64,000 nt of DNA from assembly GCA_043815505.1 (NCBI GenBank), contig JBDRIV010000004.1:113671-177670 (forward strand), written 5' to 3'. Positions 11,844 to 47,510 of the stretch are shown here, one piece after another. Each line of letters opens with the position of its first letter. Position 1 is the first letter of the stretch. The translations under genes and the position numbers were made by a program. The stretch comes from a bacterium (GTDB lineage: Bacteria; Patescibacteriota; JABMPQ01; JBDRIV01). The notes below the pieces were generated by a model. That model made no database searches. It saw nothing but the letters and a program-made list of their open reading frames with translations, and was not told where the DNA came from.

Positions 11844-13115
11844 TTATAAAGCTAATAATTTTAAAAACGATTTTGTGTCCTGGTGAGGACTAATCATGGC
11901 TAAATTTAATTTATCGGTTGTAAATATTTCCTGGGCTACTTCTTTTATATCAGCGGCTGTTACGGCATCAATTTTTTTAAAGAATGAGTTTAGTGATGGA
12001 ACTTTTTGTCTAAACAATTCGTTAACTGCTATCCAAACGGCACTTTCGGACGTGTCTTCTAAACTCATCATGGTTTGACCCTTCAAATGCTCTTTGGCTT
12101 TTTTTAATTCTTTAGCTGGAACTGTCTGTTTTTTAATCTTTTTTAGTTCTTGAATAATTATCGCGATTGCTTCTTTAGCCTTACTATTATCACAACCAGC
12201 AGTAATTGCCAAATAACCTGTATCTTTGTAAGCTTCAACACTGGAACGAACATAATAAGCTAAACCTCTTCTTTCTCGCACAGCAATGAAAAGCCGTGAA
12301 CTCATGTAGCCACCCAGCAAAGCTGACAGTATACTTAAAGCATAACGTTTTTTGTCATACATATCAAAGGCACGAACACCGAGTGATAAATGAGACTGAT
12401 CAGTTTTTTTATAAAATAATTTTATTTGCGGAGCTACTTGCTTGTCTTTTGTTTCTGGCATTACTCGCGGTTCTTCTTTTGGCAATTTATTAGCAAAATA
12501 TATTTTTACTAATTCCCTACTTTTATTTTCAGAAATTCCTCCGGCTACTCCAACAACAATATTTTTAGCTACATATAAATCTTTTTTGTAATCAACAAAT
12601 TGCTTTCTTATCATGCTACGAACAGTTTTTTTACTACCAATAATCAAACGACCACCGGGCTGATTGCCATAAAGAAGTTGTTCAAACAAATCACCAATAT
12701 AACGCATAGGCGTATCCTGATACATGTTCATTTCTTCAATAATCACACCTTTTTCCCGCTCAATTTCAATAGCTGGCAATTTGGCGTTTTGAAGCATGTC
12801 AGAAATGAAATCAAAGGCTTTCGGAGCGTGTTGTTTGGCCACTTTAGCATAATAACCGGTAAATTCTTTGTGAGTGAAGGCATTATATTCACCACCAATT
12901 TGATCCATAAACTCGGCTACAATTTTAGCGCTTGGTCTTTTTTTTGAACCTTTAAAAAACATGTGTTCTAAAAAGTGCGAAAGCCCTGCTTCGTCTTTAG
13001 TTTCATATTTGGAGCCGGCACCGACCAAAACTAAAACGGTTACGGTTTTTTGATCAGCGGGTGCAGCCAATAAGCGTAAGCCACTAGAAAATGTGTGTCG
13101 GGAAATTTTAGGCAT
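11844..13115 (-). CDS. M16 family zinc peptidase (insulinase-like)
   Basis: 423 aa; [11 protein letters not shown] inverted zinc-binding HxxEH motif. Confidence 0.75.
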
Positions 13116-14436
13116 ATCTCTTTTTCAAATTCGTTAATAAATCAGTTATCGCCACGCGATCTTGTTGCATAGAATCACGATCCCGTACAGTTACTTGTTT
13201 ATCTTCTAAGGAATCAAAATCTATAGTTACACAAAATGGTGTGCCAATTTCGTCCTGTCGGCGGTAGCGTTTTCCTATTGAAGCAACTTCATCATAAGTT
13301 ACAGATAAATCTTTTTGTAATTCAGTTAATATTTCTTTTGCCAATTTGGTAAGAGGTTCTTTTTTTGATAAAGGTAAAACTGCAACTGTGTAAGGTGCCA
13401 ATTTATACGGCAAGCGCAACACAACTTCTTCATCTTTTATGCTTTCCGTTGTGGTTGATCTACCACCTTTTACTGCTTCGTAAGAATCCATCAGCACTGC
13501 GAGTACCGCTCTGTCAATTCCACCAGAAGTCTCTATGATCCAAGGAATATATTTTTCGTTTGCTTCTTGATCAAAATATTTTAAGTCTTTTTTAGAATGT
13601 AATTCATGCTGAGTTAAATCAAAATCACCTCGATTATGAATCCCCTCAAGTTCAATCCAACCCCAAGGCGCCTGATATTCAATATCAACGGCGGCCTTAG
13701 CATAATGGGCTAACTTGTCTTTTGGATGTTCATAAAATCTAAGCTTCTTTTTATCAATTCCTAAATTTATATACCAATTCATTCTATTATCTTTCCATTG
13801 TTCAAAATATTTATCAGCTTCCTCCGGTTTTACAAAATATTGCATTTCCATTTGCTCAAATTCGCGGGTGCGAAAAATAAAATTGCCAGGAGTTATTTCG
13901 TTACGAAAAGCTTTCCCAATTTGTGCCATTCCAAAAGGTAATTTTTGCCGCATACTTTCTTGTACATTTTTGAAATTTACATAAAGTCCTTGGGCAGTTT
14001 CTGGACGAAGGTATGTTTTACTAGCATCATCTTGAACCGGCCCTAAGAAAGTTTCCATCATCATATTAAAGTCTTTGGCGATTGTTAATTCCCCTTTACA
14101 ATCGGGACACTTTTCCTGATTTTCTAAGTCTTCAGCTTTAAATCTATGGTGGCACTTTTTACATTCCACTAACGGATCAGAAAATTCTTCTACATGTCCA
14201 GAAGCTTCCCAAACTTTTGGATGCATTAAAATGGCAGCGTCAAATCCCACAATATCTTCTTGCTTTTGCACCATTTCCTGCCACCAGAATTTTTTTAAGT
14301 TGTTTTTCAATTCTATGCCAAGGGGTCCGAAATCGTACGTACTCCCTAATCCCCCATAAATTTCTGATGACTGAAATACAAAACCGCGCCGTTTGGCGAG
14401 TGAAACAATTTTTTCCAGTGTTAATTTATCGGTCAT
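13108..14436 (-). CDS. glyS: glycyl-tRNA synthetase (dimeric GlyQS type)
   Basis: 442 aa class II aaRS with anticodon-binding C-terminus; start codon directly abutted by the GTAC-core motif. Confidence 0.85.
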
Positions 14437-19458: not shown

Positions 19459-20034
19459 TCAAACTTTAAGAGCGGAAACTAAAGATATTGGCCCTGATTG
19501 AATTTTAATTTTTTGAAAACCATTTTGTTTAAGAAGTCTAGGTAAAAAAGACGAAGGCCAAAATGTTGTATGCCCATCTCCAATTTTACGAAAATATTTC
19601 TCTAAAATTCTTGCTACTAGCGAGTCGCGAAAATAATCATAAATATAAATTTTTCCGTACGGCCTTAAAACGCGGTAAGTTTCAGCAATGGCTTTGTTCG
19701 GATCGGTAAAATGATGAAAAGCGTCAATGCTAGAAATAGCAGAAAAAAAATTAGCTAACCAAGGAAGCTGTTCGGCCAGTCCTAGTTCAAAATTAGTATT
19801 GGGTAAAAAAGGAGAATAATTTAAGGCTTTTTCTATCATATTTTCTGAAACATCTAAACCAAAAACTTCGCTCTGAGGAAATTTATTGGCAGTTTGACGA
19901 ACAAATTCTCCCGCACCACATCCTAAATCTAAAAGTTTTTCTTTAGGACGCAAAAAAACATTGGTCAATAATCTTTTTGCCTGGCGACGCGACCAAGATT
20001 CGTTGAAAGGATTGTATAATATTTTATTTGTCAT
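19459..20034 (-). CDS. class I SAM-dependent methyltransferase
   Basis: LDLGCGAGEF motif I; start codon abutted by a GTAC-core motif variant. Confidence 0.75.
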   Translation of the reverse strand: MTNKILYNPFNESWSRRQAKRLLTNVFLRPKEKLLDLGCGAGEFVRQTANKFPQSEVFGLDVSENMIEKALNYSPFLPNTNFELGLAEQLPWLANFFSAISSIDAFHHFTDPNKAIAETYRVLRPYGKIYIYDYFRDSLVARILEKYFRKIGDGHTTFWPSSFLPRLLKQNGFQKIKIQSGPISLVSALKV

Positions 20035-20761: not shown

Positions 20762-20983
20762 TTTTAAATGATAATGATGGAGATTATTTCCCCTCCTGAA
20801 GCATAAGAAACCTGTTATAATTTTATTATAGCATATTTTGGACAAAAAAATCCCACTTAAGTTTCCAGTTACTATTGTTGTCATATTAAAAGAAAAAGAC
20901 CCGCGCTAGTTTTTAGAAAACTAACGCGGGCCGAAACGACGAATCCAAGGACTAAGACCAAAGTTCAGATGAGAACTGAGAGC

Positions 20984-21658
20984 TTAAGTCCAAAGAACTC
21001 TAGTTACTTTCGAGGACGGACGCAGGATTTTGCTGGCGCTCCCGTCGTCATGGTCGACCCAGGAGCAGCCCCAGTCCCAGGAACCATCGCCAAACCGACA
21101 GAGGTAAAGAACGTTGCGACCGCCGTCGGGGTTGCGGAGAATGGCACCCCAGAACGACAGGAACTTGATGCCCTTCGTGTCATACAGCCACTTGAGGGTC
21201 TTATGACCCTTCTCCTGCCACAGCGCCATGAAGTCTTGCTCATCGAGCTGGACATCTTCGGGAACTGCCTTGATGCGCTGAAGACGTTCCTTTCCGTTGA
21301 TGTAGGATTCACCTTCGAGATAGTCCTTATTGACAATCCTTCCAGCATCCAGATTGCCACTTTCGCGCTTTCCCACTCGCTCGATGATGCTCCAGCCTTT
21401 GCCCAGGAACTGTTCGGGGTTGAAGAGCTGGCGCTCGAGCAGATGAGGCTCGGTGGCACGCAGGTGAGCTTCCACGCGAGTACGCAGGTCGGCGAGGGTG
21501 TTTTCGGCGATTTCTGCTCCCTGTGCTTCGATCACCTGCTGGCTCGCCTCTCTTGGCAGATCGCTTTTCCTCCCCTTTGCCACGATGACATCGGCGAGTT
21601 TTGTCAGCTGTCCACCAGTGATAGTTTCTGCGGATGGGGACACGGTGTCTTTACCCAT
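20984..21658 (-). CDS. hypothetical protein in a high-GC island (about 224 aa)
   Basis: About 58-60% GC against about 33% genome; strong SD (AAGGAGG, 8-nt spacer) before ATG at 21658; no recognisable domain. Confidence 0.6.
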   Translation of the reverse strand: MGKDTVSPSAETITGGQLTKLADVIVAKGRKSDLPREASQQVIEAQGAEIAENTLADLRTRVEAHLRATEPHLLERQLFNPEQFLGKGWSIIERVGKRESGNLDAGRIVNKDYLEGESYINGKERLQRIKAVPEDVQLDEQDFMALWQEKGHKTLKWLYDTKGIKFLSFWGAILRNPDGGRNVLYLCRFGDGSWDWGCSWVDHDDGSASKILRPSSKVTRVLWT

Positions 21659-21785
21659 GGCGACATCCTCCTTATGTTGTATAGTACACGTCCTAGAACG
21701 CACAGAGCCTATCTCTGCACATTACTAAGACTGTGTATTATATATTATTATATCTTTTTTTCAACCATTTTCAGGAAAATATCCC

Positions 21786-25751: not shown

Positions 25752-26261
25752 ATGAAATACTGGCTATTGTCTTTGCTTCTGCTGCTGACAACTGTGAGTT
25801 GTCTGGCGCAAAATTCTCCCCTCTCCAATCTGGTTTATCCAGAAATTCGGGAGGAATTTAGAAATTTGGTTGAGGCTCGTGATGAAAATGTTATAGATCT
25901 GATTCTAACTCACTGTTATAACACCAAATTTCCCTGTTGTGTGGGATCAAGTTATAAGGAGTTGCGAGAAGCATTTCCTTATGCCAACGAAAATTCAGTC
26001 CACTTTATGGTAGAAGTTTGTGAACGCCTGACGGAAATTGAGAACTACTATCAGTGGTCAGAATTTCTGGCTAAGTTCTGGCAACACAATCCTAACTATC
26101 TTAATCTCAGATTTTTAAAGTCTAAATGTCGTAGTAACGTTAATGAAAATTGGATAATTCGCAGTGTTCTTATCGGTTCAATTTTCATTTTGATGGCAGA
26201 CAATCCGGAAATTACTATTCCTGATGAAGTACTGAATTTCTTCCAAATCGCCCGGGAATGA
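25752..26261 (+). CDS. secreted Cys-containing hypothetical protein
   Basis: AGGAGG SD 6 nt before ATG at 25752; signal peptide MKYWLLSLLLLLTTVSCLA; GC higher than genome. Confidence 0.5.
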   Translation: MKYWLLSLLLLLTTVSCLAQNSPLSNLVYPEIREEFRNLVEARDENVIDLILTHCYNTKFPCCVGSSYKELREAFPYANENSVHFMVEVCERLTEIENYYQWSEFLAKFWQHNPNYLNLRFLKSKCRSNVNENWIIRSVLIGSIFILMADNPEITIPDEVLNFFQIARE

Positions 26262-26423: not shown

Positions 26424-26452
26424 TTGACAATTTTATGTTTTGGTAGTATAAT
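26424..26452 (+). promoter_or_regulatory. consensus sigma70-type promoter TTGACA-N17-TATAAT
   Basis: Exact TTGACA (26424-26429) and TATAAT (26447-26452) with a 17-nt spacer, about 85 nt upstream of the GTG-start gene. Confidence 0.5.
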
Positions 26453-26536
26453 ATAGCTCAAATAAAAATAAAGAAAGTTCTCTAACCCCCGCTTTCCGTA
26501 TTCTGGAAAAACAACTTAAAAAAGGGAGGACGGAAA

Positions 26537-26860
26537 GTGACAAAAAGAGACGTTTTGGTGGTGATGGCAATGTTACTCTGCATGACCGCGGGAAACATTG
26601 CAGGATTATTCCTCGCAAATGAGAACCCAATCCAGCAGATCTGGGAAGGTCCCGACGGGAACTTCAAGCTCCTGTTGGTTCTGTTCCCCTTCATCGTCAT
26701 CACCTTCTGCGTTCTCTGCATCCGCGAGGTGCGGAGAACCAGAAACAAACAGTGGGTGACACTGTATACCGTTTTGGCTATCGCCGGCATGGCAGCGGCC
26801 ATCGGAGTTGGGATTTGGAGTAGTAAGTGCTTCATCGCACTTATGGCTCCATCCTGCTAA
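26537..26860 (+). CDS. small membrane protein (107 aa)
   Basis: GTG start preceded by a GGGAGGA SD; three hydrophobic helices; about 50% GC. Confidence 0.5.
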   Translation: MTKRDVLVVMAMLLCMTAGNIAGLFLANENPIQQIWEGPDGNFKLLLVLFPFIVITFCVLCIREVRRTRNKQWVTLYTVLAIAGMAAAIGVGIWSSKCFIALMAPSC

Positions 26861-26869
26861 CCCCCTCAA

Positions 26870-26914
26870 CCCGCTCGTAGCAACCTTAATTGGAAGCTGC
26901 AGCGGGTTTTTTTT
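26870..26914 (+). terminator. intrinsic terminator
   Basis: CCCGCT...AGCGGG hairpin followed by T8. Confidence 0.5.
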
Positions 26915-26990
26915 GACAAAAATAGTATTTTTCGCTTTACTGCAAATATAAACAAGTGATCTTTTTACAAACTACATAAGGAGAATATTG

Positions 26991-38893: not shown

Positions 38894-38921
38894 TTGACAG
38901 ATTTTACAGTTTAAGTATAAT
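38894..38921 (+). promoter_or_regulatory. consensus sigma70-type promoter TTGACA-N16-TATAAT
   Basis: Exact hexamers at 38894-38899 and 38916-38921. Confidence 0.45.
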
Positions 38922-38929
38922 TTCTAATG

Positions 38930-39450
38930 CCATCAATCGGCACTTGATCATTTGATAATATGGGGATACGGGGGCGTAGACGAGAGAGTTTGTTTGCATG
39001 TAACTTAGTGGAAATTCGACGAACAGCACCATTGGCGCCCGCACATCGGTTAACGCGGTTTCGCCAGACTTGGTGCTACGTGGTTTATCGCCATCGACGC
39101 AAGACGCGGATTAACTATCCGCGCATCCGCCGGACAGCCCAGCGAGCCTTGCTCGCTGACGTTATCAACATTTTCACGCAGGTGTAGATCTTATTGGAAG
39201 ACCTTCGTCCTCGCAAAATAAAAACGCGACTCTATCGAATGTCTGCTATCAGCACCATAAACACCATGCAATCCAGTATGGCTTTATGGATCGTTGATCC
39301 TTGACTGCATCTAACCTGCGTCTTCGTGCTCTCTCTGATGCGCCTCCGTCCCCTACCCATACCCAACCAGAGGAGAATTTCTACCCCCTTCCCCTCTGCC
39401 CACCGGGGCCACAGCAAATCTTCATCGAGATGCTGTGGTCCCATTTTTTT
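38930..39450 (+). ncRNA. candidate structured ncRNA (about 520 nt)
   Basis: Promoter-to-terminator unit with no credible ORF, GC-rich with many local hairpins; terminator GGGCCACAGCA...UGCUGUGGUCCC plus U7 at about 39405-39450. Confidence 0.3.
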
Positions 39451-39499
39451 ATTAAATATTTGACAAAATATTTCTTGATATTATACTAATAAAGCTCTT

Positions 39500-39830
39500 T
39501 AGATATAAATATGTGGTGTGGTGCGGGGTGGCTGATAAGCTGATACGGTTGAGTGCTGTGTAAAAATCGTAATGGATATCCTTATTGGGGTCACGGCTAG
39601 ATTCCCATGATGTCCGAGGAACAGGAGTAAACCTGTACACACGTGCTGTGTCGCAGCATCGCGCAAAGTCAGTTAGTTCTGCATGCGCAGGCCCGCCAAG
39701 ATCAGTACCGAAAGGGAAAAATCGTTGGCCAATAATTCTGGGCACCATCTCGCCGAAATATCGCTTTTTCATCCCCCCGCACCCACCCTTTTTCAAGGCA
39801 GATTTGGACCAAGTCCTTTCTGCCTTTTCT
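39500..39830 (+). ncRNA. candidate structured ncRNA (about 330 nt)
   Basis: TTGACA-N16-TATACT promoter at 39461-39488; 5' GGTGCGGGG pairs with 3' CCCCGCACC; terminator AAGGCAGA...TCTGCCTT plus U-run at about 39787-39830. Confidence 0.25.
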
Positions 39831-39840
39831 TTTTCCTTGA

Positions 39841-40685: not shown

Positions 40686-40883
40686 ATGCCCAAACTAAAG
40701 ACTCATAAAGCAACTGCCAAAAGAATCAGATTAACTGCGAAGAAAAAACTGATGCAACGCTATACTCATCAGGATCATTTTAATGCTCGTGATACTGGCA
40801 ATAAAACTCGCAAAAAAAGAAGAGATGTTGTTTCTAGTTCAACCAACGTTAAGAAAATGAAAAAATCTCTTCCCTATCAATAG
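40686..40883 (+). CDS. rpmI: 50S ribosomal protein L35
   Basis: MPKLKTHKATAKR L35 N-terminus. Confidence 0.9.
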   Translation: MPKLKTHKATAKRIRLTAKKKLMQRYTHQDHFNARDTGNKTRKKRRDVVSSSTNVKKMKKSLPYQ

Positions 40884-41327: not shown

Positions 41328-41358
41328 TAAAAAAATAAGGGCTGCCCGAATGGGTAGC
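41328..41358. terminator. hairpin terminator after rplT
   Basis: AAGGGCTGCCC-GAAT-GGGTAGCCCTT. Confidence 0.5.
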
Positions 41359-41395
41359 CCTTTCTAGTTTGTTGTGTTCGTGTCGTCACCTGTTG

Positions 41396-42049
41396 TTAGG
41401 CGACGGCGGTTTCTTCGACGGTGGGTTCGGCCGGCTTGTCTTCCGACTTGGGGGGAAGCCACGCTTCTTCGACGATCGGCGGACGCATGTCCTCCGGCAT
41501 GTCGAACTCGTTGGTGCCGGGACGCGGGTCGTAGGCGAAGTCGACCCACAAGTAGTTGTTGAACCACTGGAACCAGGCCGATGTCTTGACGCCGATTTTC
41601 ATTCGCACCTGGTAGTCGAAGTGAGTCGGAAACAGCTCCCGCATCTCACCGAAATCAATGGCACGCTGGTAGACCTGTTGTTGCCCCCGCTTGTCGATGT
41701 AAACCAGTCGCACCTGCGACTGGACGATCCTCGAGACGCGCTCGAAGTCGGCGGCCGGTGCCCAGGCGATGGCCTGGTACTTGGCCCGATGTCCTGGGGG
41801 AGCCTCGACGATCCGCATAGGGATCACCTTCTCCAGTTCGGGGCGTGCGAAGAGCCGTTTCTTCTTCAAATCGAAGAAAAAGCCATTGCCGATGGGCTCG
41901 ATGGCTCGACCCGCCAAACGATGGACGTAGCATCCTTCGCGTCGTCCGTTGATGACGACTGTAGTGAAGAAAAACTCACTGTCGCCGATCTTGGCAACAG
42001 TACCGACCGTATTGATCGGCTTGGACTGACTCTGATATTGTCCTCTCAT
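41396..42049 (-). CDS. hypothetical protein in a high-GC island (about 217 aa)
   Basis: About 60% GC; AAGGAGG SD 7 nt before ATG at 42049; acidic Pro-rich C-terminal tail; no recognised domain. Confidence 0.6.
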   Translation of the reverse strand: MRGQYQSQSKPINTVGTVAKIGDSEFFFTTVVINGRREGCYVHRLAGRAIEPIGNGFFFDLKKKRLFARPELEKVIPMRIVEAPPGHRAKYQAIAWAPAADFERVSRIVQSQVRLVYIDKRGQQQVYQRAIDFGEMRELFPTHFDYQVRMKIGVKTSAWFQWFNNYLWVDFAYDPRPGTNEFDMPEDMRPPIVEEAWLPPKSEDKPAEPTVEETAVA

Positions 42050-42151
42050 GGCTTTTCCTCCTTGCCTTAGAGAGATTATATTATGGCGCAAAATTTTACA
42101 TGCGCCACCGAACACAAATTGAAACGAACATCATAACAACAAAAACATTGC

Positions 42152-42179
42152 ATTATACATTATTTGTAATATTTGTCAA
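42152..42179 (-). promoter_or_regulatory. consensus sigma70-type promoter (minus strand) TTGACA-N16-TATAAT
   Basis: TTGACA at 42179-42174 and TATAAT at 42157-42152, reading the minus strand. Confidence 0.45.
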
Positions 42180-42240
42180 TATTTAGAGGCTAAAACAAAA
42201 ACTGTCCATTTTTATAGACAGTTTTTTATACCTTATTTAA

Positions 42241-42340
42241 GCCCAGTAGTACAATTTACTTATTGAATTTTATCCTATTTTTTTGAACTTGTGAATAAAG
42301 AAGAAAATATTATTATCTAAGACAATTGTACTATCTGGGA
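42241..42340. promoter_or_regulatory. GTAC-core inverted-repeat pair
   Basis: GCCCAGTAGTACAATTT and CAATTGTACTATCTGGGA, between the subtilase stop and the promoter of the high-GC gene. Confidence 0.45.
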
Positions 42341-42347
42341 AGCCTTT

Positions 42348-44915
42348 TTAAAACAATCCAGCCGTTACATCAGCGCCTCCTCGAAAAGCGGAATCATAGG
42401 CAAAGAAATTTGGATAATTTCTGGGATAACCATTTACCTCAAATCCTCTTATGTGCGGACCACCACCATTGACTGCAGCAGTTAAAATTTCGGTGCGTCC
42501 GTCTTCATCAATATCAAACAAATCTACATGTGCTCCAATTTGGATATCGCCGTAGGCTTTAAATTCTCCTAATTGTGTATGATCTGAATTATAACGATAA
42601 ACTTTTATCCAAGCTTGCTCAGAAGAAGAACTTTGCGAAACGACAATTTCATCTTTACCATCGCCATCGTAATCCCCTGTCCCTACATCTACCCCACCAC
42701 GATAATCGGGATGAAAGGCAAAAAACTGAATTCCTTTAGCTGTGCCGTCCGCTTCAAAAACTCTAATTTGTGGTCCACCACCTGGTCCAGCACCGACAAT
42801 CACTTCGTCCTTACCATCATTATCAACGTCTCCCATAGCCACCGAGGCACCGGATTCCACATTACCAAAAGCATTCCATTCGCCCACAATTGTTTTGTCA
42901 TTATTGTAGCGATAAATTTTTACCCAGGCTTGTCCACCTTGCGCTTGCGCGGCAGCAATTTCTGCTTTGCCGTCGCCGTCCGTATCGCCACAAGCAATGT
43001 TAGTTCCAGTTCGAGAATCGGGATGAAAAGCAAAAAATTGAATTCCGCGCATCGAACCATCGGCTTCATAAACTTTAATGTGCGAACCAGCTCCAGCCAT
43101 CGGGGCAGTTATAACTTCATCAGCTCCGTCGCCATCAATATCACAAGCAGCCACATTAACACCGGATCGCATGGAAGTTCCATAAGGAAAAACATTTAAA
43201 ACTGATGGTGTTCCCGTTGGGCCGAAGCTTCTAACCTGACCACTACCTGGTCCAGAACCAGTTATAATTCGTAAATAATTTGGCATTGCTGAAACTTTGG
43301 TTTTAGCAGAATAATTGGGAACTTCATCATAAGAAAATATACTATAATAATATGTTTGACCGTTTGTAACCGAGGTATCTTCTTTGTATTCTCTACTACC
43401 AGAATAAATAGATGTTCCATCAGTGACGCTGGAAGGATAACCTGAAGTTTTTCGTCTGATCTTCACACCAGCAAAATCGTTGGTAGAGGGATTATCCCAG
43501 GTTAAAGAAACAAATCCATCATGTGGAATGGCAGTAAAATTACTAACTTTTGCAGGGGGTGTAGAATCATTGTTTAAAGCAGCAGAAATATTTATTAAAC
43601 CGTAACCATATTTATTATCTCTACCAGCCGCACCTAAATCAGTTGCGGTGTTTTTTATTGTTGTCCAAATATTAGCGGGAGCGATGCCTTTAGCTAACAT
43701 TAAAGCGACAGCTCCAGATACGTGAGGTGTAGCCATCGAAGTTCCCTGCCAAAATTGATAGGAAAAAGTAGTACAAGCTGAAGTGTTGCAAGTATCTTGT
43801 ATAATTCCATCGCCATGGCCATCACCGTTTTGATCAACAGAAGTATCTCCACCTGGCGCCATAATATCTAAAGCTGAACCGTAATTGGAATAACTAGCAC
43901 GCGTGGCATCATAACGAGTGGCACCAACCGCAATTACACCAGAGTGCGAAGCAGGATAATCAAGAGTGGGATCACCAATACTATCGCCTCCACCATTGCC
44001 AGCGGCAGCAACCACAATAACATTATGGGAAATAGCATGATCAATTGCTGATTTTAATGTAGCGCTATAACTTCCGCCCAAACTTAAATTTATAACGTCG
44101 GCGCCATGATTAACGGCATAATTAATTCCATCTGCTACAGCTGAAATTGGCCCCCAACCTACATCATCTAAAACTTTAACGGGCATTATTGTAGTATTGA
44201 AAGCAATTCCCGCTGTACCTAAATTATTATTGGTAGCTTGGGCAATCGTTCCAGAAACGTGCGTGCCGTGTCCATTATCATCATTGGGATGCGCATCACC
44301 ATTTATATAATCATAACCAGAGGTAAAATTTGTTCCTGCAAAATCTGGTGCTTTTTTATAACCACCATAATTCTCATAAGAAACTCCTGTATCAACAACT
44401 GCTACTACCACACTAGCAGCACCACCATATTTAGGATTTTTTTGATCAACGTTCCAAGCACTGGGCATATTAACATCTGAATTTGTTCCATTTCTAGTAT
44501 TGTGAAAATTCCATTGTAAATAAAAATAAGTGTCATTGGGCACATAGGAAGCTGTGTAAATATAATTCGGCTCGGCAAATTCCACTGCTGGGTTGTTATT
44601 TAATTCTGTAACAAATTCTTCTACACTTTTATTTTGTGGCACAGAAGCATTTGTTATTTTTTGCTCTGTAACACTTTTTACAGTCGAATTTTTTGCTGAC
44701 AATATTTTTAAACCACCAGTTTCTGATACATTATCTTTGAATTTAACTAAAACTTCACCTTCTACATAATCGGTAGCAGGTTCAGTGATGAAAGTTTTTC
44801 TTCCCAAATCGTCTTGAGCTGCTTGCAAATAAAAATCCGGATTAAATCCAGACATAGAAAACATGGTTGCCACAGCAATTAGACAAATCAAATAAAGGTG
44901 TTTTTTGTTTTTCAT
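42348..44915 (-). CDS. secreted subtilisin-like serine protease (S8) with C-terminal FG-GAP/VCBS-like repeats
   Basis: D (VVAVVDTGV), H (HGTHVSGT) and S (GTSMATPHVSG) catalytic triad motifs; signal peptide; Gly/Asp-rich repeats. Confidence 0.8.
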   Translation of the reverse strand: MKNKKHLYLICLIAVATMFSMSGFNPDFYLQAAQDDLGRKTFITEPATDYVEGEVLVKFKDNVSETGGLKILSAKNSTVKSVTEQKITNASVPQNKSVEEFVTELNNNPAVEFAEPNYIYTASYVPNDTYFYLQWNFHNTRNGTNSDVNMPSAWNVDQKNPKYGGAASVVVAVVDTGVSYENYGGYKKAPDFAGTNFTSGYDYINGDAHPNDDNGHGTHVSGTIAQATNNNLGTAGIAFNTTIMPVKVLDDVGWGPISAVADGINYAVNHGADVINLSLGGSYSATLKSAIDHAISHNVIVVAAAGNGGGDSIGDPTLDYPASHSGVIAVGATRYDATRASYSNYGSALDIMAPGGDTSVDQNGDGHGDGIIQDTCNTSACTTFSYQFWQGTSMATPHVSGAVALMLAKGIAPANIWTTIKNTATDLGAAGRDNKYGYGLINISAALNNDSTPPAKVSNFTAIPHDGFVSLTWDNPSTNDFAGVKIRRKTSGYPSSVTDGTSIYSGSREYKEDTSVTNGQTYYYSIFSYDEVPNYSAKTKVSAMPNYLRIITGSGPGSGQVRSFGPTGTPSVLNVFPYGTSMRSGVNVAACDIDGDGADEVITAPMAGAGSHIKVYEADGSMRGIQFFAFHPDSRTGTNIACGDTDGDGKAEIAAAQAQGGQAWVKIYRYNNDKTIVGEWNAFGNVESGASVAMGDVDNDGKDEVIVGAGPGGGPQIRVFEADGTAKGIQFFAFHPDYRGGVDVGTGDYDGDGKDEIVVSQSSSSEQAWIKVYRYNSDHTQLGEFKAYGDIQIGAHVDLFDIDEDGRTEILTAAVNGGGPHIRGFEVNGYPRNYPNFFAYDSAFRGGADVTAGLF

Positions 44916-46676: not shown

Positions 46677-47510
46677 ATGGCGACTTTGCGGTTAAGACGT
46701 GAAAAATTAGATGCTAAAAAATGGCACGATCAGGGTTATCAGCTTTTTGATATGCATTTGCATACCAAATTTTCTAATGATGCTTTTTCTTCAGTTAATA
46801 GAGTTTTAAAATTGGCCAAGAGAAAAGGAATTGGTTTGGCAATTTCCGATCACAATGAAATTCGCGGCTCGGTAATTGCTGCCAAAAACAAAATGGGCGT
46901 GCCCATAATTCCCGGTATTGAATTGAAATTTCAGCGTAATTTAGACATTTTATGTTACTTTTATTCAGTGGAAGATTTACAAAATTTTTTTCGTAAATAT
47001 GTCGAACCACATTTAAAAACTCCTTTCGCACCAACCAATATTCGCTTCATCGATATGGCGCCGGAATATTTCTTTTCCCAGATTCATGATATTAATTACG
47101 TTGTAAGTATTGCTCATCCTTTTGTTTTTCGAGCTGGTGCCGCTGTTTTAATAAAGGAAAAATTCATTTCGGCTCATTTATTAGATTATGCTACTATGGT
47201 AGAAATTATGAATGGTCACATGACAAAAGGAACAAATTTGAAGGCAGCTCGTTGGAAACTAGCATCACACAAGAACGCTTCGGGCGGCTCCGATTCTCAT
47301 ATGGGAATCAATGTTGGACGCATGGTCACAGCTACTAAAGTTATGGATGCCGAGCATTTTTTAGATGCTGTTAAGCGTGAATCAATTGCTATTGGTAAAG
47401 AACCTTTTTATATGAACACGATTGTTTCTTTTGCCATTGGATTATTAAAAATTATTATATTACATTTTAAAGATTTAATTTTTAAATCATCAAGGAAAAA
47501 AGATGTCTAA
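46677..47510 (+). CDS. PHP-domain phosphoesterase
   Basis: HLHTKFSND...ISDHN PHP motifs; ATG directly abutted by the GTAC-core motif. Confidence 0.7.
   Translation: MATLRLRREKLDAKKWHDQGYQLFDMHLHTKFSNDAFSSVNRVLKLAKRKGIGLAISDHNEIRGSVIAAKNKMGVPIIPGIELKFQRNLDILCYFYSVEDLQNFFRKYVEPHLKTPFAPTNIRFIDMAPEYFFSQIHDINYVVSIAHPFVFRAGAAVLIKEKFISAHLLDYATMVEIMNGHMTKGTNLKAARWKLASHKNASGGSDSHMGINVGRMVTATKVMDAEHFLDAVKRESIAIGKEPFYMNTIVSFAIGLLKIIILHFKDLIFKSSRKKDV

What the first reader, a model, noticed from the sequence alone, without database searches (positions are those of the whole stretch)
41330..42240. Second high-GC island with an SD-led 217-aa gene driven by a perfect consensus promoter
The ORF 41396..42049 (minus) is about 60% GC. 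It is preceded by AAGGAGG (7-nt spacer) and, about 95 nt further upstream, by an exact TTGACA-N16-TATAAT promoter.

It is wedged between the rplT terminator and the subtilase terminator, next to a GTAC-core pair. The protein has a beta-rich N-terminal portion and an acidic, Pro-rich tail (PPKSEDKPAEPTVEETAVA), with no recognisable motif. The tracked ORF 41369..42070 (+) is a shadow.

This shares composition, strand, size and translation signals with the 21 kb island, so the two may be parts of one horizontally acquired system, or independent acquisitions from a similar high-GC donor.
Basis: partly seen in the sequence, partly recalled or inferred. Interest (0 to 1): 0.55.

Follow-up and report, generated by a model that had tools for sequence, protein, structure and literature searches.

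The report
Foreign high-GC orphan gene cassette
A real 217-codon gene with foreign (high-GC) codon usage and its own strong expression signals sits between rplT and a protease gene in an AT-rich Patescibacteria genome; it has no detectable relative anywhere, so it is a horizontally acquired orphan gene of unknown function and not part of a system with the 21 kb island.

Summary
ORF 41396..42049 (-) is 58% GC, with GC3 0.74 against a host median of 0.28. It has strong codon periodicity (p=5e-12). It is led by AAGGAGG-N7-ATG and an exact TTGACA-N16-TATAAT, and it ends at a hairpin/T-run terminator. The + strand ORF is a codon-aligned shadow.

The protein is a strict orphan. Only itself was found among 5.8 billion protein clusters, 1.84 billion HMMER-scanned representatives, Pfam, NCBIfam, PHROGs, PADLOC, PDB, phage and plasmid records, and viral and metagenome contigs. 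A single-sequence AlphaFold model is unusable.

The 21 kb island protein (B) is unrelated to it (hhalign probability 0.4%). B belongs to a small family that is native to 55-60% GC Patescibacteria and appears as a GC island in several low-GC ones, never with an A-like gene. The "one system" idea is therefore not supported. Independent acquisition from higher-GC donors is the best reading.

New context:
- A third GC-rich cassette lies at 26.4-26.9 kb.
- Host genes almost never have a Shine-Dalgarno site, so the SD itself looks imported.
- The host lineage is very poorly sampled (closest L20 is 70% identical), so no empty-site test was possible.

This is an ordinary kind of thing (an HGT orphan), clearly demonstrated. 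Function is unknown.

The parts
42152..42179 (-). Sigma-70-type promoter, exact TTGACA-N16-TATAAT
   Evidence: 12/12 match; 4 such sites in the window against 0.04 expected. It is AT-rich and host-like: promoter plus leader is 29.8% GC.
42050..42145 (-). AT-rich 5' leader of about 96 nt, with a GC-rich hairpin (GGCGCA...UGCGCC, about 42083-42108) roughly 20 nt upstream of the SD
   Evidence: Sequence. RNA fold gives -30.3 kcal/mol, z = -2.4. No Rfam match at E<=5. The transcription start is inferred from the -10 box and is not measured.
42057..42063 (-). Shine-Dalgarno AAGGAGG, 7 nt before the ATG
   Evidence: Only 4 of 48 ORFs of 150 aa or more (starts crudely assigned as the first ATG) have any GGAG/GAGG upstream. 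The SD therefore marks the foreign segment.
41396..42049 (-). Protein-coding gene, 217 aa, an orphan. It has a basic body (residues 1-175, pI 9.8) and an acidic Pro-rich tail (residues 176-217, pI 4.1). No signal peptide or TM segment.
   Evidence: No homologue was found.
41363..41395 (-). Short 3' UTR
   Evidence: 45.5% GC.
41337..41362 (.). Bidirectional intrinsic terminator (11-bp stem, 7 GC pairs). The T-run TTATTTTTTT lies on the minus strand. Shared with rplT.
   Evidence: I18; sequence.
42197..42226 (-). Neighbour, not part of the gene: terminator hairpin of the subtilase/FG-GAP gene (42348..44915, -). It insulates the promoter from read-through.
   Evidence: (I9).
42241..42339 (.). Neighbour: one copy of a repeated intergenic inverted-repeat element (arms CCCAGTAGTACAA / TTGTACTATCTGGG), lying in the subtilase 3' UTR
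   Evidence: (I1). RNA fold z = -5.0.

Best explanation
This is a genuine protein-coding gene that entered an AT-rich (about 36% GC), largely SD-less Patescibacteria chromosome by horizontal transfer. The donor had roughly 58-60% GC.

**What the foreign segment looks like.** It is only about 700 bp (roughly 41363-42065): SD, ORF and short 3' UTR. It sits in the rplT / protease intergenic gap. From there it is transcribed as a monocistronic unit from a host-type consensus promoter, through a leader of about 96 nt. It is translated from a canonical SD and terminated at the bidirectional rplT hairpin. Codon usage is not ameliorated at all (GC3 0.74 against 0.27). This indicates either recent arrival or continual re-seeding from a GC-rich reservoir.

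**Relation to the other islands.** It was acquired independently of the 21 kb gene (B) and of a third cassette at 26.5 kb. All three illustrate the same process: gene flow from higher-GC genomes into this one. For B the source is demonstrably higher-GC Patescibacteria.

**Product.** The protein is a soluble cytoplasmic 25-kDa orphan with a basic globular body and an acidic, proline-rich, probably disordered tail. My best functional guess is inference only, at about 20-25% probability. It is an accessory nucleic-acid-binding or conflict-related (defence or counter-defence) factor whose acidic tail self-masks the basic body or recruits partners, as in SSB or T7 gp2.5.

**Shown:** coding status, foreign composition, expression signals, absence of relatives, independence from B.
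**Inferred:** transfer direction and timing, actual expression, function.
For: - **Coding.** Three-base GC periodicity p=5e-12. GC3 > GC1 > GC2 holds in the minus frame only. The identical gene call exists in NCBI.
- **Foreign composition.** GC is 58% against 35.6%. GC3 is 0.743 against a median of 0.278. RSCU correlates at r=-0.38 with host genes and +0.43/+0.34 with core genes of 57-60% GC Patescibacteria contigs. The compositional boundary is sharp at the SD: the leader is 29.8% GC and the ORF 58.1%.
- **SD is rare in the host.** In a crude ATG-first start survey, only 4 of 48 ORFs of 150 aa or more have any SD-like motif, and two of those are A and B. An exact AAGGAGG-N5-10-ATG occurs 3 times, and two of those are A and B.
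- **Autonomous unit.** It has a promoter, an SD and a terminator, with an upstream insulating terminator.
- **Not conserved at this position.** The nearest sampled relatives (L20 65-70% identical) have other genes after rplT. One (L084) keeps a homologous FG-GAP gene (34% identity over 390 aa) with three different genes in between.
- **Same phenomenon elsewhere.** B-family genes stand out as GC islands in several independent low-GC assemblies, but match their surroundings in 55-63% GC contigs, two of which are labelled Patescibacteria.
Against: - No mobility signature was found: no target-site duplication, terminal inverted repeats, integrase or transposase next to the gene.
- No donor or homologue was found in about 15 billion proteins or in viral, metagenome, plasmid or phage DNA. 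Transfer is therefore inferred from composition alone.
- The host lineage is so poorly sampled (best L20 70% identical) that no true empty-site comparison exists. The gene could be older and lineage-specific.
- The promoter and leader are host-like in composition. How an ORF-sized foreign piece came to lie behind a perfect promoter is unexplained.
- The functional guess rests only on charge distribution. The structure model is unusable (pLDDT 39.7).
Confidence: 0.7

Rival explanations
1. A and the 21 kb island gene B are two components of one horizontally acquired system that function together.
For: Both are on the same strand, of similar size (217 and 224 aa), with similar GC (58% and 56%) and the same AAGGAGG SD. 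Their RSCU correlates at r=0.40.
Against: They are unrelated in sequence and profile. They lie 20 kb apart, separated by tgt, an aminoacyl-tRNA synthetase-like gene, tmRNA and infC-rpmI-rplT. The B family occurs in about 35 loci without any A-like ORF. A has no homologue at all. The RSCU similarity is what shared GC3 bias alone would give; B correlates better with 57-60% GC Patescibacteria core genes (0.53-0.60) than with A.
Confidence: 0.04
2. A is an old, native, lineage-specific gene whose high GC is maintained by selection (for example on mRNA structure or expression), not by recent transfer. Its orphan status would simply reflect the unsampled lineage.
For: The lineage is extremely under-sampled (best L20 70% identical among 5.8 billion clusters). 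The promoter, leader and terminator are host-like. No mobility scars were found.
Against: Highly expressed native genes (rplT, infC) have GC3 0.26-0.31, so expression does not drive GC upward here. A GC3 of 0.74 with anti-host codon choice (r=-0.38) has no known selective rationale. The SD is alien to a genome that otherwise lacks SDs. The gene is absent at the equivalent position in the nearest relatives. B shows that real transfer from high-GC genomes produces exactly this picture.
Confidence: 0.1
3. A is cargo from a phage or other mobile element (a 'moron'-like or defence / anti-defence gene) left behind, or delivered without the rest of the element. This is a special case of the main explanation.
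For: Its features are typical of morons and defence islets: single-gene size, own promoter and terminator, strong expression signals, orphan status and foreign composition. Two further GC-rich single-gene cassettes lie in the same 64 kb.
Against: There are no hits in PHROGs or PADLOC, 50,697 phage records, IMG/VR contigs or plasmids. No phage or integrase genes are adjacent. The one cassette whose origin can be traced (B) is chromosomal in its native genomes, next to recA, ftsK and efp.
Confidence: 0.15
4. The island is an assembly or binning artefact (a chimeric insertion of reads from a GC-rich organism), or it is a GC-rich structured RNA rather than a protein gene.
For: The source is a MAG. 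The window does contain GC-rich non-coding, promoter- and terminator-bounded elements (38.9-39.8 kb) that look like structured RNAs.
Against: The segment is internal to the contig, with host sequence on both sides. Its ends coincide with functional signals (SD and terminator) rather than with repeats. The same pattern recurs for B in independent assemblies from other samples. Codon periodicity is very strong for A but absent in the RNA-like elements (p = 0.5 and 0.9). There is no Rfam hit.
Confidence: 0.03

Closest known systems
Single-gene horizontally acquired 'islets' / ORFan accessory genes (for example prophage morons)
   Same: Compact foreign ORF with atypical GC and codon usage, its own promoter and terminator, inserted between housekeeping genes. 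No homologues.
   Different: There is no prophage, integrase, tRNA or repeat boundary. The promoter and leader have host composition, whereas the SD and ORF are foreign.
The B family of the 21 kb island (P0002-P0015; about 35 loci; no Pfam, no PDB or BFVD fold match)
   Same: Same genome, strand, size class, GC excess and AAGGAGG SD. Monocistronic with its own terminator. Appears as a GC island in low-GC Patescibacteria.
   Different: There is no sequence or profile similarity to A. B has homologues, a conserved SD-spacer (AGGAGGATGWCGCCATG), a conserved leader hairpin and 3'-UTR motifs, and a traceable native home in 55-60% GC Patescibacteria. A has none of these.
Integron gene cassettes
   Same: ORF-sized mobile units with minimal non-coding DNA.
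   Different: Integron cassettes are usually promoterless and end in an attC imperfect inverted repeat next to an intI/attI platform. Here there is a private promoter and no attC-like repeat. No integrase gene flanks A: its immediate neighbours are rplT and the subtilase/FG-GAP gene. The rest of the window was not screened for integrases.
SSB / phage T7 gp2.5-type nucleic-acid-binding proteins with acidic C-terminal tails (functional analogy only)
   Same: A basic, apparently beta-rich body of about 175 aa followed by a Pro-rich linker and an acidic tail. Similar size to gp2.5 (own knowledge).
   Different: There is no sequence similarity to any SSB or OB-fold family. The fold is unverified. 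The tail does not end in the canonical acidic-aromatic tip.

Membership tests
Any curated protein family (Pfam-A, NCBIfam, PHROGs, PADLOC) | Significant profile-HMM match | tested here: not met
   There are 0 families in Pfam, PHROGs and PADLOC. The best NCBIfam hit is RlmH at E=0.079, 13 bits against a cut-off of 141. The extended 239-aa form and the + strand shadow ORF also give none.
Any sequenced protein family (homologues at all) | At least one non-self homologue at E<=1e-3 | tested here: not met
   Only a self-hit was found among 5.8 billion clusters and 1.84 billion representatives read in full by HMMER. PDB gave none. Phage and plasmid tblastn gave none. IMG/VR and JGI metagenome contigs gave none.
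B family (21 kb island protein) | Profile similarity to the 14-sequence alignment A1 | tested here: not met
   hhalign probability 0.4%, E=0.15 over 21 columns.
Horizontally transferred genomic islet | Composition and codon usage deviating from the host | tested here: met
   GC is 58% against 36%. GC3 is 0.74 against 0.28. RSCU correlation with host genes is r=-0.38.
Horizontally transferred genomic islet | Absence from the same site in close relatives (empty site) | tested here: inconclusive
   The nearest sampled relatives are distant (L20 65-70% identical). They lack the gene after rplT and show only loose synteny.
Horizontally transferred genomic islet | Mobility scars (direct repeats, terminal inverted repeats, integrase or transposase, tRNA target) | tested here: not met
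   No flanking repeat stands out from chance. There is no tRNA in the window. The neighbours are rplT and a subtilase/FG-GAP gene.
Prophage moron / phage-derived gene | Phage gene neighbourhood or phage homologues | tested here: not met
Known anti-phage defence systems | Match to a PADLOC model | tested here: not met
   One search gave no match at E<=1.
Integron gene cassette | attC recombination site at the 3' end | tested here: not met
   The only 3' inverted repeat is the 11-bp terminator stem.
SSB/gp2.5-like ssDNA-binding proteins | OB-fold core | tested here: inconclusive
   The single-sequence AlphaFold2 model has pLDDT 39.7 and pTM 0.26, which is too poor for a fold search. There is no sequence match to OB or SSB families.
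SSB/gp2.5-like ssDNA-binding proteins | Acidic C-terminal tail after a flexible linker | tested here: met
   Residues 176-217 have pI 4.1, with 11 D/E against 4 K/R, and are Pro-rich.

The most novel reading that the evidence does not exclude
A, B and the 26.5 kb cassette could be products of one dedicated capture route in SD-less, AT-rich Patescibacteria. In this reading, ORF-sized GC-rich genes from higher-GC Patescibacteria (or the organisms they live on) are installed behind host consensus promoters, next to the repeated CCCGGTAGTACAA/TTGTACTACCGGG inverted-repeat elements, which would act as landing or recombination sites.

Copies of that element lie immediately upstream of the promoters of A and C, in the same orientation, with an extended shared flank (GGGCTTAnnTAAGnTAT). 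Another copy lies one gene away from B.

A would then be a strongly expressed, novel-fold effector acquired through this route.
Probability: 0.06. Interest if true: 0.7.

Novelty: new member of a known kind. Interest (0 to 1): 0.3.

Why it matters
The gene itself is one more horizontally acquired orphan: interesting mainly as a clean example, and as a strictly unique protein among roughly 15 billion.

The wider pattern is more useful. In a Patescibacteria genome that essentially does not use Shine-Dalgarno sites, the few SD-led genes are compositionally foreign single-gene cassettes wired to the strongest promoters. For one of them, the source is other, GC-richer Patescibacteria. That gives a simple sequence signature (GC3 plus SD) for spotting recent imports in such genomes, and hints at gene flow within the radiation.

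If the donor of A could be found, it might point to the ecological partners of this uncultured organism.

Tried and rejected
- **Family scans.** Pfam, PHROGs, PADLOC and NCBIfam scans of A gave nothing. The first attempt failed on a wrong frame for B.
- **Homologue searches.** Word-indexed and full HMMER searches of the large protein collections returned only A itself.
- **Other sequence collections.** PDB by sequence, phage and plasmid tblastn, and IMG/VR and JGI metagenome scans gave nothing.
- **Structure of A.** Single-sequence AlphaFold2 gave pLDDT 39.7, so no fold search was attempted on it.
- **The + strand ORF as the real gene.** Rejected on its mirrored GC pattern and lack of family hits.
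- **RNA element or riboswitch in the island or leader.** No Rfam match. The leader hairpin is only modestly stable (z = -2.4).
- **Empty-site test.**
  - 80 GTDB loci around rplT relatives were at most 61% identical.
  - The best L20 anywhere was 70% identical.
  - GC-rich stretches downstream of rplT in some relatives turned out to be unrelated things: a secreted protein in L007, non-coding DNA next to a reverse transcriptase in L065, and TA genes in L059.
  - The 212-aa GC-richer gene next to the FG-GAP gene in L084 is unrelated to A.
- **Exact look-up of A's contig.** Failed.
- **Inverted-repeat elements next to B islands in other genomes.** None comparable were found; only B's own conserved leader hairpin appeared.
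- **Literature search** on GC-rich imports in Patescibacteria found nothing pertinent.

Full report
**1. What is there**

The window is 35.6% GC. It comes from a Patescibacteria-type genome:
- It carries tmRNA and infC-rpmI-rplT.
- The closest L20 proteins are all from Patescibacteria/Parcubacteria MAGs.
- NCBI lists the gene as 'MAG: hypothetical protein ABIE68_04625 [bacterium]' on a 255-kb contig.

Between the stop of rplT (41317) and the stop of a minus-strand subtilase/FG-GAP gene (42348) lies a sharply bounded GC-rich block. 100-nt windows rise from about 0.30 to 0.55-0.69 between about 41350 and 42050, then fall back to 0.26-0.29.

The block is filled by ORF 41396..42049 on the minus strand (217 aa). 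Its GC is 58.1%, and GC at codon positions 1/2/3 is 0.60/0.40/0.74. This periodicity is highly significant (chi2 51.9, p 5e-12). It is absent from two GC-rich non-coding elements elsewhere in the window. The block is therefore a protein-coding gene, read on the minus strand.

The 233-aa ORF on the + strand uses the same triplet partition. It is open simply because the sense gene lacks the codons TTA, CTA and TCA. It has the mirrored GC pattern and no family or PDB match.

**2. Expression signals**

| Signal | Position |
|---|---|
| AAGGAGG, then a 7-nt spacer, then ATG at 42049 | 42063-42057 |
| Exact TTGACA-N16-TATAAT | 42179-42152 |
| Leader of about 96 nt, 30% GC, with one GC-rich hairpin (fold z = -2.4); no Rfam match | about 42145-42050 |
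| Subtilase terminator upstream of the promoter | 42197-42226 |
| Hairpin 33 nt after the stop codon | 41337-41362 |

The 7-T run of the 41337-41362 hairpin lies on the minus strand. It is a bidirectional terminator shared with rplT. The gene is thus an insulated monocistronic unit.

Exact consensus promoters are selected in this genome: there are 4 against 0.04 expected. The others drive a native secreted protein (16.2 kb), a GC-rich non-coding element (38.9 kb) and a further GC-rich ORF (26.4 kb). The promoter is therefore host-type.

The SD is not host-type. In a crude survey of 48 ORFs of 150 aa or more (start taken as the first ATG), 44 have no GGAG/GAGG within 20 nt of the start. Two of the four that do are this gene and the 21 kb gene. 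The compositional boundary falls right at the SD. The imported DNA is therefore about 700 bp: SD, ORF and short 3' UTR.

**3. Foreignness**

- GC3 of 0.743 is the highest in the window; the median is 0.278.
- Relative synonymous codon usage is anti-correlated with host genes (r = -0.38). It is positively correlated with core genes of 57-60% GC Patescibacteria contigs (0.34-0.43).
- Native highly expressed genes (rplT, infC) have GC3 0.26-0.31, so expression level does not explain the bias.
- No target-site duplication, terminal repeat, tRNA or recombinase accompanies the gene.

**4. The protein**

It is 25.1 kDa, with no hydrophobic segment (maximum Kyte-Doolittle-19 score 1.13) and no signal peptide. 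Residues 1-175 are basic (pI 9.8). Residues 176-217 are acidic and Pro-rich (pI 4.1). A short motif recurs (IGDSEFFF / IGNGFFF, 31 residues apart), visible as DNA repeat D6.

No relative was found anywhere:
- Curated libraries: Pfam, PHROGs, PADLOC, NCBIfam.
- Solved structures: PDB by sequence.
- Large protein collections: 5.8 billion clusters and all 1.84 billion representatives read by HMMER.
- Annotated records: phage records and plasmids.
- Contig collections: IMG/VR contigs and JGI metagenome contigs.

Single-sequence AlphaFold2 gave pLDDT 39.7, so the 'beta-rich' description is unverified and no fold search was justified.

**5. Relation to the 21 kb island (B)**

B (20984..21658, -, 224 aa, GC 56%, GC3 0.65) is likewise foreign and SD-led, with its own terminator. 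However:
- It is unrelated to A (hhalign probability 0.4%).
- B has 13 homologues in the protein collection and 24 metagenome loci.
- Among the closer homologues (>=53% identical), the SD-spacer AGGAGGATGWCGCCATG, a leader hairpin and 3'-UTR motifs are conserved.
- Genomic contexts differ from locus to locus.
- In low-GC contigs the gene is a GC island. In 55-63% GC contigs it matches its surroundings.
- In two of the high-GC contigs it sits among rpoC, ftsK, recA and efp. EF-P and the B homologue of one contig, and RpoC of the other, are labelled 'Patescibacteria group bacterium' by NCBI.

B therefore moved from GC-richer Patescibacteria into several AT-rich ones. None of these loci carries anything like A.

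B's AlphaFold model is good (pLDDT 79.8) but matches no solved or viral fold. It gives no functional lead for either gene.

'Independent acquisitions from GC-rich donors' stands.

**6. Presence in relatives**

The host lineage is very sparsely sampled. The best L20 among GTDB species representatives is 61% identical, and the best in the whole protein collection is 70%.
- Relatives at 70% have a NIF3-like gene after rplT.
- One relative at 65% (L084) has rplT, three unrelated genes and then an FG-GAP protein. That protein's C-terminal half is 34% identical to the window's subtilase/FG-GAP protein.

A is therefore not conserved at this position, but these genomes are too distant for a proper empty-site test. 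This is the main weakness of the transfer inference.

**7. Most likely mechanism**

*Shown:* a real, compositionally alien, SD-led ORF, wired to a host consensus promoter and terminator, unique in public data, and independent of B.

*Inferred:*
- It arrived by horizontal transfer from a donor of about 58-60% GC. By analogy with B, that donor is plausibly another Patescibacteria lineage or its mobile elements.
- It arrived recently, or is repeatedly re-seeded, since there is no amelioration.
- It is strongly and constitutively expressed.
- Its function is unknown. The basic body plus acidic Pro-rich tail is reminiscent of nucleic-acid-binding proteins with regulatory acidic tails (SSB, T7 gp2.5; own knowledge). 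Single-gene, strongly expressed, rapidly turning-over imports are often conflict genes. I give this functional guess about 20-25%.

**8. Rivals**

| Rival | Probability |
|---|---|
| Joint system with B | 0.04 |
| Old native gene with selectively maintained GC | 0.10 |
| Phage or mobile-element moron or defence gene (a sub-case of the main reading) | 0.15 |
| Assembly artefact or RNA element | 0.03 |

**9. Novelty and interest**

The kind of thing, a horizontally acquired orphan gene, is well known. This is a new and unusually clean member of it. The side observations listed below are arguably more interesting than the gene itself. Overall interest is 0.3.

Noticed in passing
window 26424-26916 (+): A third GC-rich monocistronic cassette. 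It has an exact TTGACA-N17-TATAAT (26424-26452), a leader of about 80 nt, SD GGGAGG and a GTG start. The ORF 26537..26860 encodes a 107-aa hydrophobic, probable membrane protein (only weak sub-threshold Pfam hits to transmembrane families). GC is 51.5%, GC3 0.67, periodicity p=4e-4. A terminator lies at 26868-26916. No viral relatives were found. The gene just upstream (25752..26261) also has an SD (CAGGAGG) and the highest GC3 (0.376) among the otherwise native-looking ORFs.
   Followed up: partly
window 38894-39450 and 39461-39840 (+): Two adjacent GC-rich (50-52%) elements lie between tmRNA and infC. They have no long ORF and no codon periodicity. Each has a consensus or near-consensus promoter (TTGACA-N16-TATAAT; TTGACA-N16-TATACT) and a hairpin/T-run terminator. 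In the predicted folds, the 5' and 3' ends pair in long closing stems. There was no Rfam match even at E<=1, and no similar DNA in 1 Mb of related loci. They are candidate large structured RNAs of about 500 and 340 nt.
   Followed up: partly
The arms CCCGGTAGTACAA / TTGTACTACCGGG are conserved; the AT-rich loop of about 75 nt is not. There are 12 arm matches against 0.94 expected. In at least four cases the arm abuts a start codon directly (TTGTACTACCGGG-ATG): rpmI at 40686, and the genes at 19459..20034(-), 13108..14436(-) and 46677..47510(+). Copies lie immediately upstream of the promoters of cassettes A and C, in the same orientation.
   Followed up: partly
whole window: Host genes essentially lack Shine-Dalgarno motifs: 44 of 48 ORFs of 150 aa or more have no GGAG/GAGG within 20 nt of a crudely assigned first-ATG start. 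Several start codons lie a few nt after TATAAT-like boxes, which suggests leaderless or SD-independent initiation. The SD-led genes are the compositionally foreign ones.
   Followed up: partly
window 20885-21730 (-); L001, L086, L088, L089, L090-L113: The B-family cassette carries conserved non-coding parts across hosts: the SD-spacer AGGAGGATGWCGCCATG, a leader hairpin (GATAGCC.TAGC...GCTATGGCTATC) and 3'-UTR TTAGNCCTTGG-like motifs before the terminator. The family is native to 55-60% GC Patescibacteria (next to rpoC, ftsK, recA and efp) and island-like in AT-rich ones. The AlphaFold model (pLDDT 79.8) has no PDB or BFVD fold match.
   Followed up: partly
L065 6607-8269; L007 6475-7056: In other Patescibacteria the region just downstream of rplT also holds atypical inserts. 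L065 has a 385-aa reverse-transcriptase-like ORF with an adjacent GC-rich non-coding stretch. L007 has a GC-richer (49% against 34%) 193-aa secreted protein.
   Followed up: no
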